A stretch of DNA of 64,000 bases from Chthonomonas calidirosea. Lineage in GTDB: Bacteria > Armatimonadota > Fimbriimonadia > Fimbriimonadales > Fimbriimonadaceae. Both the position numbers and the translations under genes were made by a program. Numbering within the stretch: the first letter of the stretch is position 1; every line of letters starts with the position of its first letter. The notes beneath the pieces are model-generated. The model was not told the DNA's origin. It worked only from the letters and a program-made list of their open reading frames with translations, and made no database searches. Location of the stretch: assembly GCA_945859975.1 (NCBI GenBank), contig CAMAPH010000001.1, positions 1 to 64,000 on the forward strand. Reading direction: 5' to 3'. Of this stretch, positions 61,670 through 62,623 are shown in pieces.

Positions 61670-62623
61670 TTAGTTCCGCGACGCCGCGTTCTCTTGCTCG
61701 GCACTGCGAGCGTCCATGTTCGGCAGATGCTCCGTCGCGAACGAACGCAGGTCCTTCGCGGCAAAATCGGCTCCTGCCGATAGGAAGCGCGCCGGATCCT
61801 GATTGACCATCGCGCCTCCTACGCCAATCGTATATGGCTGGCGACGGTCTCGGACGCGGACCAGTTCCTTCAGCAAAGCTTCGGTATCCGCCGCACTCTC
61901 CTCTGCGGCGCAGCTCAACAGAACCAAAGTTGGTCGGTGGTTGCGCACCGTGGTGATGAAGCTCTTGACCGGCACGTTGGCGCCGAGGAACAGCGTGCGC
62001 CATCCATGTAGGCGAAGGTAGTCGCCAATCATGCGAAGTCCGATGACGTGCCAAGAGTTCGGCGCGCAACCAAGAAGGGCAACCCGGCCGTGCCGACGCA
62101 TTGGCCCCATGATCTGCGAGGTTCGAGCCAACATTCGCTCCGTAACCGCGCTGGCCATGTGCTCCTGGGCCTCGTCAATCGCTTCGACCTTCCACCAGTT
62201 CCCAACCATCGTCATGGCGGGGGCCAACAAGTCCTCGTAGATTTCGATCAGTGAGACCTGCGCGCGGAATGCGGCGTCCATGATCTCGGAGCAAGTCTGC
62301 TCATCACCCTGAACTGCGGCTCGGGCGTACTCTTTGGCCAGTTCGCCCAGGTGCACGTCGGCTGCGCGCAACTCAGGCTGCGTGAATACGGAGTTCACAA
62401 TCGCTTCAATCTCTGGCGTAGCAAGGCTGTAATAGACCTGTCGGCCCGATTTGGTGGCTCGAACGATACCGCGTGCTCGCATTCGTGCGAGGTGGTTGCT
62501 CACGTTCGGCTGCTTCAGATCCGTGGCTTCACAAATTTCCGAGACGTTCCTATGCCCCGCTCGAAGCTCCGCCAGAATTTGGCGACGCGAAGTATCTCCG
62601 AGTTCTTCATAGACGTTTATCAT
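61670..62623 (-). CDS. ArsR/SmtB-type regulator fused to a CarH-like cobalamin-binding module
   Basis: LGDTSRRQIL...QPNVSNHL...GRQVYYSL wHTH; W-x9-EH (WKVEAIDEAQEH); H-x2-G-x41-S...GG Rossmann B12-binding motif. Confidence 0.9.
   Translation of the reverse strand: MINVYEELGDTSRRQILAELRAGHRNVSEICEATDLKQPNVSNHLARMRARGIVRATKSGRQVYYSLATPEIEAIVNSVFTQPELRAADVHLGELAKEYARAAVQGDEQTCSEIMDAAFRAQVSLIEIYEDLLAPAMTMVGNWWKVEAIDEAQEHMASAVTERMLARTSQIMGPMRRHGRVALLGCAPNSWHVIGLRMIGDYLRLHGWRTLFLGANVPVKSFITTVRNHRPTLVLLSCAAEESAADTEALLKELVRVRDRRQPYTIGVGGAMVNQDPARFLSAGADFAAKDLRSFATEHLPNMDARSAEQENAASRN

What the first reader, a model, noticed from the sequence alone, without database searches (positions are those of the whole stretch)
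61670..62623. ArsR-type DNA-binding domain on a CarH-like adenosylcobalamin photoreceptor module
Seen: N-terminal ArsR/SmtB winged HTH, a helical cap with an exact W-x9-EH motif, and a Rossmann domain with H-x2-G-x41-S and the terminal GG. Established: W-x9-EH caps the adenosyl group in CarH/LitR B12 photoreceptors, which use a MerR-type DNA-binding domain and usually flank carotenoid or photoprotection genes. Differences here: ArsR replaces MerR, the residue after W is K (no equivalent of Thermus CarH His132), the usual acidic residue of E/D-x-H is S, and no crt or photolyase gene is nearby in this window. Inference: a distinct class of light- or B12-sensing repressor, possibly linked to acyl-CoA metabolism.
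Basis: partly seen in the sequence, partly recalled or inferred. Interest (0 to 1): 0.75.

Follow-up and report, generated by a model that had tools for sequence, protein, structure and literature searches.

The report
ArsR-fused CarH-like B12 light-sensor regulator
This gene encodes a transcription regulator that joins an ArsR-type DNA-binding domain to a vitamin-B12-binding module of the kind bacteria use as a green-light sensor, and it represents an uncharacterised family found almost only in the phylum Armatimonadota.

Summary

- **Closest structures:** the cobalamin domain is closest, by sequence and by predicted fold, to proven photoreceptor domains (CtMerR 8jbs, photocobilins, then TtCarH), not to methyltransferase corrinoid proteins.
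- **Dimer model:** a two-copy model gives a CarH-like head-to-tail dimer through the B12 domain (score 0.51, best control 0.00).
- **Family:** 464 genomic stretches matched; 66 of the 75 full-length loci kept are labelled Armatimonadota. The fusion looks like a single lineage.
- **Derived traits:** the adenosyl-cap Trp is Tyr in 92 of 120 members, and the acidic residue of E/D-x-H is absent in all 120.
- **Published light signature:** this protein meets three of four elements (N189 replaces Gly).
- **Context:** no crt, photolyase or B12 genes in the window. The link to acyl-CoA dehydrogenase is limited to one clade and the two genes have separate promoters.
- **Operator:** the candidate lies in the regulator's own promoter.

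Eight literature searches found no description of this architecture. Verdict: a new variant of a known kind. Light sensing is inferred, not shown.

The parts
61670..62623 (-). Gene for the 317-aa ArsR-wHTH / cobalamin-binding-domain regulator (stop codon 61670-61672)
   Evidence: ORF; three Pfam domains; 320 homologs at E<=1e-3, of which all 120 listed have the same architecture; AlphaFold2 model with mean pLDDT 90.7
62378..62623 (-). ArsR/SmtB-type winged helix-turn-helix, residues 1-82 (a1-a5 with a beta hairpin)
   Evidence: HTH_5 at 11-55; NCBIfam HTH_metalloreg at 4-75, 74.7 bits vs cut-off 55; model elements H4-9, H11-20, H27-34, H38-50, E54-59, E62-67, H70-81
62474..62518 (-). Recognition-helix segment, residues 36-50 (LKQPNVSNHLARMRA)
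   Evidence: K37, Q38, N40, V41, S42, H44 and L45 are invariant in 34 aligned family members of 46-100% identity. This implies a conserved DNA target
62351..62377 (-). Flexible linker, residues 83-91
   Evidence: The pLDDT block for 81-90 averages 61 and is the only low-confidence internal segment
62108..62350 (-). Four-helix bundle (B12-binding_2), residues 92-172
   Evidence: Pfam B12-binding_2 at 96-166; helices 92-104, 108-120, 125-145 and 151-172
62159..62203 (-). Adenosyl-cap motif G141-N-W-W144-K145-x8-E154-H155
   Evidence: Regex. Family conservation: G141 117/120, W143 116/120, position 144 Y 92 / W 19, E154 120/120, H155 117/120. Aligns with CtMerR W156/E166/H167 (alignment; PMC11796333 section 11)
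61754..62083 (-). Rossmann-type B12-binding domain, residues 181-290
   Evidence: Pfam B12-binding at 182-287; alternating strand and helix elements 181-289; Foldseek match to 8jbs_B with TM 0.83 and rmsd 2.2 A over 205 columns
62039..62059 (-). His loop N189-S190-W191-H192-V-I-G195 (presumed lower axial ligand H192)
   Evidence: H192 120/120 and G195 118/120. Position 189 is N 80 / G 21. Position 190 is S 62, N 20, G 13, A 12, C 7, T 6, with no D or E
61970..61984 (-). G214-x3-P218 loop, in the predicted dimer interface
   Evidence: G214 and P218 are invariant in 120/120. Residues 209-214 and 217-218 are in the confident interface of the two-copy model
61673..61750 (-). C-terminal helix, residues 292-317
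   Evidence: Helix 292-316 in the model. L292, F295 and P301 are conserved and the tail is variable
62624..62765 (.). 142-bp divergent intergenic region holding both promoters
   Evidence: Sequence; comparison of 36 orthologous intergenic regions
62631..62670 (-). Candidate promoter and operator of the regulator gene: -35-like ATGACG (62665-62670), ATATCA (62655-62660), -10-like TATTGT/TAATAT (62636-62646), and a second ATGTCA (62632-62637) 23 nt from the first
   Evidence: GACGAA..ATCA..CGTATTAnAT is shared by L001, L004, L011, L012 and L054. ATATCA-like sites are enriched upstream of the regulator: 101 observed vs shuffle mean 66, max 86. The operator role is an inference
62719..62725 (+). 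-10-like box GTAAAAT of the acyl-CoA dehydrogenase gene
   Evidence: GTA[AGC]AAT is conserved at the same relative place in most of the 36 orthologous intergenic regions
62766..63878 (+). Divergent acyl-CoA dehydrogenase (370 aa). This is context and a possible, unproven target
   Evidence: Four Acyl-CoA_dh Pfam domains. Best NCBIfam match is acryloyl-CoA reductase AcrC at 284 bits, below the 640 cut-off. Adjacent and divergent in 36 of 68 judgeable loci

Best explanation
The gene encodes a one-component, cobalamin-dependent transcriptional repressor that works like CarH but reads DNA with an ArsR-type winged helix instead of a MerR-type one.

Proposed mechanism:
1. In the dark the C-terminal module binds adenosylcobalamin, with H192 as the lower axial ligand. 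The adenosyl group is capped by the four-helix bundle (W144, which is Tyr in most relatives, plus E154 and H155).
2. Two modules pack head to tail. The helix carrying E154/H155 lies against the G214xxxP218 loop of the partner. By analogy with CarH and CtMerR, dimers may pair into tetramers.
3. The oligomer holds several ArsR domains together, so they bind cooperatively to an operator overlapping the gene's own promoter. The candidate is an ATATCA-containing element, which is a perfect TGATATATCA palindrome in other lineages.
4. Light breaks the Co-C bond, the oligomer falls apart, DNA affinity drops and transcription is released. Because K145 replaces TtCarH His132, the light state cannot be bis-His. 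It should resemble CtMerR, which has Arg there.

Shown computationally: architecture, fold, nearest relatives, family conservation, predicted dimer geometry, and promoter-located conserved elements.

Inferred: B12 binding, which B12 form is bound, light response, repression, and the operator.

Unknown: the regulon beyond probable autoregulation.
For: - Three domains above Pfam cut-offs.
- PDB sequence search: CtMerR CBD 8jbs E 9.6e-22 (81 bits) and photocobilins 8j2w/x 2e-18 (70 bits), against corrinoid proteins MttC at 37 bits, MtaC at 28 bits and MetH at 27 bits.
- Model pLDDT 90.7. Foldseek best match 8jbs_B, E 7e-15, TM 0.83, rmsd 2.2 A; TtCarH CBD entries give TM about 0.8.
- CtMerR, photocobilins and TaCarH were shown to bind AdoCbl and respond to green light, and CtMerR goes from tetramer to monomer (PMC11796333, sections 8, 11, 12 and passages).
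- Invariant or near-invariant in 120 relatives: E154 120, H155 117, H192 120, G195 118, G214 120, P218 120, G269/G270 120. The cap position is aromatic (Y 92, W 19).
- Two-copy model: score 0.51 (runs 0.49-0.55), best of 3 controls 0.00, at least 65% of contacts shared between runs, partner pLDDT at least 80. That mark was reached by 20 of 30 proteins solved as pairs of one chain and by 1 of 23 solved as single chains. The interface is 105-109 and 150-170 against 209-229 of the other copy. Like complexes are solved (CarH, CtMerR), so the pass may be from memory; it shows likeness, not binding.
- The recognition helix is invariant across the family.
- All 7 exact TGATATATCA copies in the 78 loci lie just upstream of the regulator gene: 6 of 54 de-duplicated upstream regions against 6 of 3177 background windows.
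- Inverted ATATCA pairs at spacing 4: 11 observed vs shuffle mean 1.4, max 6. Direct pairs at spacing 11: 4 vs 0.4, max 3.
Against: - No experiment exists for any family member.
- Only 3 of the 4 published light-signature elements are met (N189 in place of Gly). All four are met by only 5 of 120 close members and 18 of 92 diverse representatives.
- The acidic residue of ExHxxG is absent. The S-x-V/T and x22-27 parts of the classic motif read S-C-A and x29 here.
- The NCBIfam CarH model scores 47 bits against a cut-off of 400.
- No photoprotection gene lies in the window or among 96 representative neighbours in lineages that lack the dehydrogenase.
- The window itself has no copy of the palindrome even with one mismatch.
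- The conserved upstream elements overlap -35/-10-like boxes and could be promoter elements only.
- Counts include related loci (L031, L042-L044) and are not independent.
Confidence: 0.55

Rival explanations
1. It is a cobalamin sensor in the dark rather than a light sensor. The module reports B12 availability or B12 form and adjusts metabolism, possibly the neighbouring beta-oxidation genes (acyl-CoA dehydrogenase, FadB, ETF). One possibility is switching between B12-dependent and B12-independent routes for acyl-CoA breakdown.
For: - The family has derived changes at cofactor-contacting positions: cap Trp to Tyr in 92 of 120, no acidic residue before the His ligand in 120 of 120, and Gly to Asn in 80 of 120.
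- No photoprotection genes nearby.
- In the Fimbriimonadales-like clade the gene sits between an acyl-CoA dehydrogenase (36 of 68 judgeable loci) and a FadB-like gene 1.4-3.5 kb downstream (21 loci), followed by ETF beta/alpha genes (10 loci each).
Against: - E154-H155, which contact the adenosyl group that makes the cofactor light-labile, are invariant or nearly so.
- The nearest characterised relatives are all photoreceptors.
- The dehydrogenase has its own conserved -10 box about 50 nt from the regulator's promoter, and no shared element was seen.
- Adjacency is absent in the L031/L042-L046 clade and in Chthonomonadales-like loci.
- Any AdoCbl-bound protein is light-sensitive in practice, so this rival overlaps with the main reading.
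Confidence: 0.22
2. The cobalamin-type domain no longer binds B12. It serves as a cofactor-free or other-cofactor oligomerisation module, as in B12-independent CarA or haem-binding SCHIC-type domains.
For: - Departures from the classic motif: S for E, N for G, S-C-A for S-x-V/T, and x29 for x22-27 (motif as quoted in a PMC8156234 passage).
- Only 5 of 120 members carry the full published light signature.
Against: - H192, G195, G214, P218, G269, G270 and E154 are invariant or nearly so across 120 members, which is hard to explain without the cofactor.
- According to PMC8156234 (passage), CarA's B12 independence goes with absence of the Wx9EH motif, which is present here.
- The fold matches holo structures with TM 0.8.
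Confidence: 0.06
3. It is an ordinary ArsR/SmtB metal or metalloid sensor that happens to carry an accessory domain. This is what the NCBI name given by the source ('metalloregulator ArsR/SmtB family transcription factor') suggests.
For: NCBIfam HTH_metalloreg is above its cut-off. Some sources name the relatives this way.
Against: - Within residues 1-85 the only invariant or near-invariant Cys or His is H44, in the recognition helix. C31 of this protein is not conserved.
- The metal-site motifs of the family (alpha3N CxC, alpha5 DxHx10Hx2E) are recalled from memory, and I do not see them in the sequence.
- No metal-resistance gene is adjacent.
Confidence: 0.03

Closest known systems
CtMerR, the Chloracidobacterium thermophilum MerR-family B12 photoreceptor (PDB 8jbs/8jbt; PMC11796333)
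   Same: Best sequence match (E 9.6e-22) and best fold match (TM 0.83) for the cobalamin domain. It shares G-x-x-W, E-H, His ligand and G-x-x-x-P. It has a basic residue (Arg, vs Lys here) instead of TtCarH His132, so no bis-His light state is expected. The head-to-tail dimer geometry is also shared.
   Different: CtMerR has a MerR-type DNA-binding domain, Gly in GxxH (Asn here) and Asp two residues before the His ligand (Ser here) (alignment). CtMerR's B12 binding, photolysis and tetramer-to-monomer switch are measured. Nothing is measured here.
CarH/LitR family (Thermus thermophilus CarH, PDB 5c8d/e/f; Myxococcus xanthus CarH)
   Same: N-terminal DNA-binding domain, flexible linker, four-helix bundle and Rossmann B12 module. 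Wx9EH is present in this protein. A one-component repressor logic is expected (PMC8156234 passages).
   Different: ArsR wHTH instead of MerR wHTH. Only 21-25% identity in the module. No Glu in ExHxxG and no His after the Trp. Not next to carotenoid genes. NCBIfam CarH model scores 47 bits against a 400 cut-off.
Photocobilins / photoglobin-B12 proteins (PDB 8j2w, 8j2x, 8j2y; PMC10979010, PMC8717448)
   Same: Second-best matches for the cobalamin domain (E 2e-18). The nearest non-ArsR relatives in the 1.84-billion-protein library are about 350-aa proteins with a weak Phycobilisome/globin-like N-terminus plus the same B12 module.
   Different: Those carry a bilin-binding globin-like domain and enzyme or signalling outputs, keep Trp (50 of 56) and the acidic residue (44 of 56), and have no ArsR domain.
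ArsR/SmtB family repressors (e.g. PDB 6o8k, HlyU 3jth, SrnR 7p6f)
   Same: The N-terminal 80 residues match in sequence (E 5e-9 to 8e-7) and in the predicted a1-a5 wHTH fold.
   Different: No conserved metal- or thiol-sensing residues. The sensing function is taken over by a fused 230-residue cobalamin module. No ArsR-ArsR contact was confidently placed in the dimer model, though that is not evidence that none exists.

Membership tests
CarH/LitR family (MerR-type AdoCbl photoreceptor repressors) | N-terminal MerR-type winged-helix DNA-binding domain | tested here: not met
   Pfam finds HTH_5/HTH_20 (ArsR) and no MerR model among 15 families at E<=0.01
CarH/LitR family (MerR-type AdoCbl photoreceptor repressors) | [quoted passage not shown] | tested here: met
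   W144-x9-E154-H155. In the family as a whole the W position is Y in 92 and W in 19 of 120
CarH/LitR family (MerR-type AdoCbl photoreceptor repressors) | Classic motif ExHx2Gx41SxV/Tx22-27GG (as quoted in a PMC8156234 passage) | tested here: not met
   The sequence reads S190-x-H192-x2-G195-x41-S237-C-A239-x29-G269-G270. The His, Gly, x41, Ser and GG are present. The Glu, the V/T and the x22-27 spacing are not
CarH/LitR family (MerR-type AdoCbl photoreceptor repressors) | Score above the curated NCBIfam CarH equivalog cut-off | tested here: not met
   NF052513 scores 47.1 bits against a cut-off of 400, and matches residues 90-254 only
CarH/LitR family (MerR-type AdoCbl photoreceptor repressors) | AdoCbl binding and light-driven oligomer disassembly | not testable with these tools
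   Only a predicted head-to-tail dimer is available. No cobalamin ligand is offered by the complex tool
Light-responsive cobalamin-binding domains as defined by the SignatureFinder signature (GxxW, EH, GxxH, GxxxP; PMC11796333 section 8) | GxxW | tested here: met
   G141-N-W-W144. Met by 19 of 120 close members and 22 of 92 representatives
Light-responsive cobalamin-binding domains as defined by the SignatureFinder signature (GxxW, EH, GxxH, GxxxP; PMC11796333 section 8) | EH | tested here: met
   E154-H155; 117 of 120
Light-responsive cobalamin-binding domains as defined by the SignatureFinder signature (GxxW, EH, GxxH, GxxxP; PMC11796333 section 8) | GxxH | tested here: not met
   N189-S-W-H192. 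Gly at this position in 21 of 120. In CtMerR the Gly contacts the corrin through its main-chain carbonyl (PMC11796333 section 11), so the side chain may matter little; that is an inference
Light-responsive cobalamin-binding domains as defined by the SignatureFinder signature (GxxW, EH, GxxH, GxxxP; PMC11796333 section 8) | GxxxP | tested here: met
   G214-A-N-V-P218; 120 of 120
ArsR/SmtB family transcription factors | ArsR-type winged helix-turn-helix above curated cut-offs | tested here: met
   HTH_5 at 44.5 bits vs 22; NF033788 at 74.7 bits vs 55; a1-a5 fold in the model
ArsR/SmtB family transcription factors | Conserved metal, metalloid or thiol sensing site (motifs recalled from memory, not from a call) | tested here: not met
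   No invariant or near-invariant Cys or His in residues 1-85 other than recognition-helix H44
Methyltransferase corrinoid proteins (MtbC/MtaC/MttC; the JGI name for many relatives) | Score above the curated family cut-offs | tested here: not met
   pyl_corrinoid 47 bits vs 215; MtgC 43 vs 370; MtaC 32 vs 420; MtbC 25 vs 350

The most novel reading that the evidence does not exclude
Armatimonadota evolved their own class of B12 photoreceptor-repressor through a single fusion of an ArsR wHTH to a photoglobin-type cobalamin domain. In this class a Tyr cap, the loss of the acidic partner of the His ligand, and a Lys/Arg in place of the light-state His give a photochemistry or B12-form selectivity different from CarH. 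In Fimbriimonadales the regulator would couple light, or light plus B12 status, to fatty-acid beta-oxidation (acyl-CoA dehydrogenase, FadB, ETF) rather than to carotenoid synthesis.
Probability: 0.12. Interest if true: 0.75.

Novelty: new variant of a known kind. Interest (0 to 1): 0.5.

Why it matters
- **DNA-binding chassis:** characterised B12 photoreceptor-repressors all use a MerR-type DNA-binding domain. A second, unrelated chassis on the same light module would show that the module can drive DNA binding through oligomerisation alone. It would also add an orthogonal green-light switch for optogenetics.
- **Natural variants:** the family's substitutions fall exactly at residues thought to tune AdoCbl photochemistry (Trp to Tyr cap, no acidic residue before the His ligand, Lys or Arg instead of the light-state His). 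They are ready-made variants for that open mechanistic question.
- **Light sensing in the phylum:** it would be a lead towards a light-sensing pathway in Armatimonadota; my searches found no CarH/LitR-type report for the phylum.
- **Annotation:** public names for these proteins each describe only half of the protein or are wrong ('metalloregulator ArsR/SmtB', 'methanogenic corrinoid protein MtbC1', 'MerR family light-induced regulator').

Tried and rejected
- **Apparent duplication.** ORFs at 8747-9871/9868-12042 have the same lengths (374 and 724 aa) as 56623-57747/57750-59924. There is no DNA similarity and no protein similarity, so this is coincidence.
- **Small ORF 61405-61626 (-)** just downstream of the regulator. 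It has no Pfam or NCBIfam hit, and tblastn finds it only in L001, the window's own record. It is probably not a gene.
- **Enriched k-mers ATTTTAC/ATTCTAC** upstream of the regulator. They looked like a possible operator but are the -10 box (GTAAAAT/GTAGAAT) of the divergent dehydrogenase.
- **TGATATATCA as an operator in the window.** It is absent from the window even with one mismatch. I keep it only as a candidate for other lineages.
- **Tree labelling.** My first two labellings of 'ArsR present' on the CBD tree used alignment columns and were wrong, because MAFFT forces unrelated N-termini to align. I replaced them with an HMM of the ArsR part. Only one search is used.
- **Conserved neighbour c2.** It has no Pfam or NCBIfam family. 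The translation shows a signal-peptide-like start and a Lys-rich tail. I found no functional tie to the regulator.
- **Photoprotection neighbours outside the dehydrogenase-linked lineages.** None of 96 representative neighbours is a crt or photolyase gene at E<=1e-8.
- **Cluster lookup** for accessions of the ortholog annotated as Fimbriimonas ginsengisoli: the query could not be made.
- **Model inspection.** Model coordinates are not exposed to scripts, so I could not check whether W143 or W144 faces the cofactor pocket.
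Full report
**What is there.**
- Window 61670-62623 (-) is a 317-aa ORF with an ATG start.
- Pfam finds HTH_5 (residues 11-55, E 1.4e-11), B12-binding_2 (96-166, 5.2e-15) and B12-binding (182-287, 2.1e-18), all above their cut-offs.
- NCBIfam's ArsR/SmtB subfamily model is above its cut-off (74.7 vs 55 bits). The CarH equivalog (47 vs 400) and all corrinoid-protein models are far below theirs.
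- The AlphaFold2 model built on a 34-sequence alignment is confident (mean pLDDT 90.7, pTM 0.70). It shows a complete a1-a5 ArsR winged helix (residues 4-81), a low-confidence linker (81-90), a four-helix bundle (92-172), a Rossmann domain (181-289) and a C-terminal helix.

**Which kind of cobalamin domain.**
- By sequence against the PDB, the best matches are the B12 domain of CtMerR (8jbs, E 9.6e-22, 81 bits) and the photocobilins (8j2w/x, 2e-18; 8j2y, 2.6e-12). These are well ahead of MttC (37 bits), TtCarH (about 30), MtaC (28) and MetH (27).
- Foldseek with the model gives the same order: 8jbs_B at E 7e-15, TM 0.83, rmsd 2.2 A over 205 columns; then photocobilins; then TtCarH CBD entries at TM about 0.8.
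- According to the SignatureFinder paper (PMC11796333; I read the abstract, sections 8, 11 and 12, and passages, and searched its one held supplement), CtMerR and the photocobilins bind AdoCbl and respond to green light. CtMerR switches from tetramer to monomer although it has Arg where TtCarH has His132.
- That paper's light-response signature is GxxW, EH, GxxH, GxxxP. This protein meets three of the four; GxxH reads N189-S-W-H192.
- A review of the M. xanthus system (PMC8156234, passages only) says CarH homologs are defined by Wx9EH together with ExHx2Gx41SxV/Tx22-27GG. Here Wx9EH is met. The second motif is only partly met: S for E, S-C-A for S-x-V/T, and x29 for x22-27.

**A family, not a one-off.**
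- The word-indexed protein search returned 320 hits at E<=1e-3. All 120 listed carry HTH_5 + B12-binding_2 + B12-binding at 46-100% identity.
- A profile search of 1.84 billion 50%-identity representatives found 236 proteins at E<=1e-30. The top hits, down to about E 1e-43, were almost all 288-408 aa and aligned over the full length, apart from shorter fragments.
- An HMM of the ArsR part scored 211 of the 268 collected proteins positive.
- In genomes, 464 stretches encode a relative. Of the 78 loci kept, 75 are full length. Of those 75, 66 are labelled Armatimonadota (Fimbriimonadales and Chthonomonadales), 5 are unlabelled and 4 carry other phylum labels. Those 4 share gene order with Armatimonadota loci, so I suspect mislabelled bins.
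- L001 (OZ248539.1, titled Fimbriimonadaceae bacterium) matches the window at 100%.
- On a FastTree of the cobalamin-domain columns (151 rows; 22 N-terminally short rows not counted), the 95 ArsR-fused rows need only 2 label changes, against about 30 for shuffled labels. The well-supported branches do not exclude a single origin.
- The nearest non-ArsR relatives are about 350-aa proteins with a weak Phycobilisome/globin-like N-terminus (photoglobin type), XRE-HTH fusions at either end, a receiver-domain fusion and a Ni_insertion fusion. The module is therefore the promiscuous photoreceptor-type CBD, and ArsR is one of several DNA-binding partners it has acquired.

**Family-specific residues.**
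- In 120 close members: E154 120, H155 117, H192 120, G195 118, G214 120, P218 120, G269/G270 120.
- The position aligned with the CarH/CtMerR capping Trp is Y in 92 and W in 19. W143, one residue earlier, is W in 116. The window's WW pair occurs in its nearest relatives.
- The position two before the His ligand is never acidic (S 62, N 20, G 13, A 12, C 7, T 6). In 56 outgroup CBDs it is E 37 / D 7, and the cap is W in 50.
- The Gly of GxxH is N in 80 and G in 21 of 120.
- All four published signature elements are met by 5 of 120 close members, 18 of 92 diverse representatives and 24 of 56 outgroup proteins. A strict signature search would therefore miss most of this family.
- C111 and C186 are at least 90% conserved in the 34-sequence alignment. 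I cannot say what they do.
- In the ArsR part, K37, Q38, N40, V41, S42, H44 and L45 of the recognition helix are invariant. No Cys/His set that could form a metal site is conserved; the metal-site motifs of the family are recalled from memory.

**Self-association.**
- The two-copy full-length prediction scored 0.51 (three runs 0.49-0.55), with 0.00 as the best of three controls. Runs share at least 65% of contacts and the partner pLDDT is at least 80.
- That mark was reached by 20 of 30 proteins solved as pairs of one chain and by 1 of 23 solved as single chains. The counts hold only roughly, because my own alignment was used.
- The confident interface is symmetric and lies wholly in the B12 module: residues 105-109 and 150-170 (the helix carrying E154/H155) against 209-229 (the loop carrying G214xxxP218).
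- That is the head-to-tail arrangement described for CarH and CtMerR (PMC8156234 passage; PMC11796333 section 11). Because such complexes are solved, the pass may come from memory and shows likeness only.
- No ArsR-ArsR contact was confidently placed, which is not evidence that there is none.

**Genomic context.**
- The gene is monocistronic. Upstream lies a divergent acyl-CoA dehydrogenase (62766-63878). Downstream the infC-rpmI-rplT genes converge on it, followed by a FadB-like gene (57750-59924).
- Across loci the Fimbriimonadales-like layout is: Xer-type recombinase < PMT_2 glycosyltransferase < [two HD_5 proteins] < secreted unknown < acyl-CoA dehydrogenase < | regulator > rplT < infC < FadB > ETF-beta > ETF-alpha > SurA-like > MazG > S1/P1 nuclease.
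- The dehydrogenase is divergent and within 263 nt in 36 of the 68 loci with enough upstream sequence (7 of the 75 cannot be judged). It is displaced in 2 and absent in 30.
- All 36 are L001-L054 or L068. Apart from L068, none of the 18 judgeable loci among L055-L075 has it.
- A FadB-like gene lies 1.4-3.5 kb downstream in 21 loci.
- Chthonomonadales-like loci instead have a PDDEXK_7/DUF2357 protein or assorted genes next to the regulator.
- Among 96 representative neighbours from the lineages without the dehydrogenase, none is a crt or photolyase gene. There are isolated MsrB, SOD, thioredoxin, polyprenyl synthetase and class II (B12-dependent) ribonucleotide reductase genes.
- The window's other ORFs are housekeeping (nuo, pnp, argG, suf and others), with no crt, photolyase or cobalamin genes and no riboswitch.

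**Promoters and a candidate operator.**
- In 36 orthologous intergenic regions, the dehydrogenase side carries a conserved GTA[A/G/C]AAT -10-like box (window 62719-62725) and a conserved RBS-proximal element.
- The regulator side carries, in the window's lineage, GACGAA..ATCA..CGTATTAnAT. That corresponds to -35-like ATGACG (62665-62670), ATATCA (62655-62660) and -10-like TATTGT/TAATAT (62636-62646). The two promoters are back to back, about 50 nt apart.
- In other lineages a perfect palindrome, TGATATATCA, sits 38-61 nt before the regulator's start. All 7 exact copies in the 78 loci are there: 6 of 54 de-duplicated upstream regions against 6 of 3177 background windows, with a shuffle mean of 0.03. 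This holds whichever gene lies upstream.
- In L031 and L042-L044 the palindrome is followed in 11-bp register by a second ATATCA.
- ATATCA-like sites are enriched in the last 110 nt: 101 vs shuffle mean 66, max 86. Preferred spacings are inverted 4 (11 vs 1.4, max 6) and direct 11 (4 vs 0.4, max 3) and 23 (3 vs 0.3, max 2).
- These counts include related loci, and the elements overlap promoter boxes. I read them as suggestive of autoregulation, not as proof.
- The window has one ATATCA and, 23 nt on, an ATGTCA on the same strand, but no palindrome.

**Literature.**
- Eight full-text searches were run.
- No paper holds 'ArsR' with 'cobalamin-binding domain' and 'photoreceptor'.
- The two papers with 'B12-binding domain' and 'ArsR' mention them separately. 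For PMC3532121 I read passages. PMC12654047 I saw in the listing only.
- 'ArsR' does not occur in the main texts of PMC11796333, PMC10979010, PMC8717448 or PMC8156234, nor in the held supplement of PMC11796333.
- PMC11796333 does say, in general terms, that light-responsive CBDs are found fused to 'helix-turn-helix (HTH) domains' (section 12). Its Fig. 9/S9 are figures I could not see and might include this architecture.
- Subscription reviews on B12 photoreceptors are not in the library.
- No paper links Armatimonadota with CarH or LitR in a relevant way (listing only).

**Verdict.**
- The interpretation as a distinct class of B12-based, probably light-sensing repressor is reasonable but untested.
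- The acyl-CoA link is weak.
- It is not a CarH/LitR family member in the strict sense: it has no MerR domain, it lacks the Glu of the classic motif, and it falls below the curated cut-off. It most likely works like one.
- It is a new variant of a known kind, of moderate interest.

Noticed in passing
window 828-965 vs 1984-2121; 180-380 vs 2318-2526: Local repeated DNA at the left end of the window: 138 nt at 94% identity and about 205 nt at 81% identity. It lies in a stretch whose ORFs have no Pfam family.
   Followed up: no
window 60083-60875: The infC ORF (60083-60715, GTG start) has a long low-complexity C-terminal tail and overlaps the start of the L35-like ORF (60582-60875, 97 aa) by 134 nt in another frame. 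This is an unusually long overlap, or an extended rpmI.
   Followed up: no
window 4000-8000 and 44000-50000: GC content rises to 0.60-0.64 against about 0.55 elsewhere. The first stretch holds a WD40 beta-propeller protein (4928-5938) and a 747-aa ORF with no Pfam family.
   Followed up: no
window 56623-57747 (+): A 374-aa ORF beside the FadB-like gene has only a weak Biotin_lipoyl/RnfC_N-like hit (E 6.6e-5) and no NCBIfam family. Its function is unknown.
   Followed up: partly
window 8747-12042 vs 56623-59924: Two adjacent ORF pairs have identical lengths (374 and 724 aa) in the same arrangement, yet are unrelated at DNA and protein level. Coincidence.
   Followed up: yes
L023, L031, L033, L036: These MAG records are titled Methyloversatilis, Archangium, Synechococcus and Methanoregulaceae, yet they carry the regulator in the same gene order as Armatimonadota loci (L022, L042-L046, L011-type, L035). 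The bins are probably mislabelled or contaminated.
   Followed up: partly
proteins P0234, P0256, P0258, P0260, P0263, P0223, P0265: Close relatives of the same cobalamin module are fused to XRE-type HTH_3 domains (N- or C-terminal), to a response-regulator receiver domain, and to the N-terminal part of a Ni_insertion (LarC-like) domain. These are other uncharacterised output combinations.
   Followed up: no
L065:1479-4838: In one Chthonomonadales-like locus the regulator lies about 700 nt from a class II (B12-dependent) ribonucleotide reductase and NrdR. This is a single case and is not conserved.
   Followed up: no
L007:3699-5563 and 10 other loci (clusters c11, c14): Two HD_5 (HD-GYP-like, c-di-GMP phosphodiesterase-type) genes are inserted into the block divergent from the regulator in a subset of Fimbriimonadales-like loci.
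   Followed up: no
window 62688-62699 and 62731-62742: A 12-nt direct repeat (TAAATCTGAGGG / TAAATCCCAGGG, 43 nt apart) lies in the divergent intergenic region. I did not see it conserved in other loci.
   Followed up: partly
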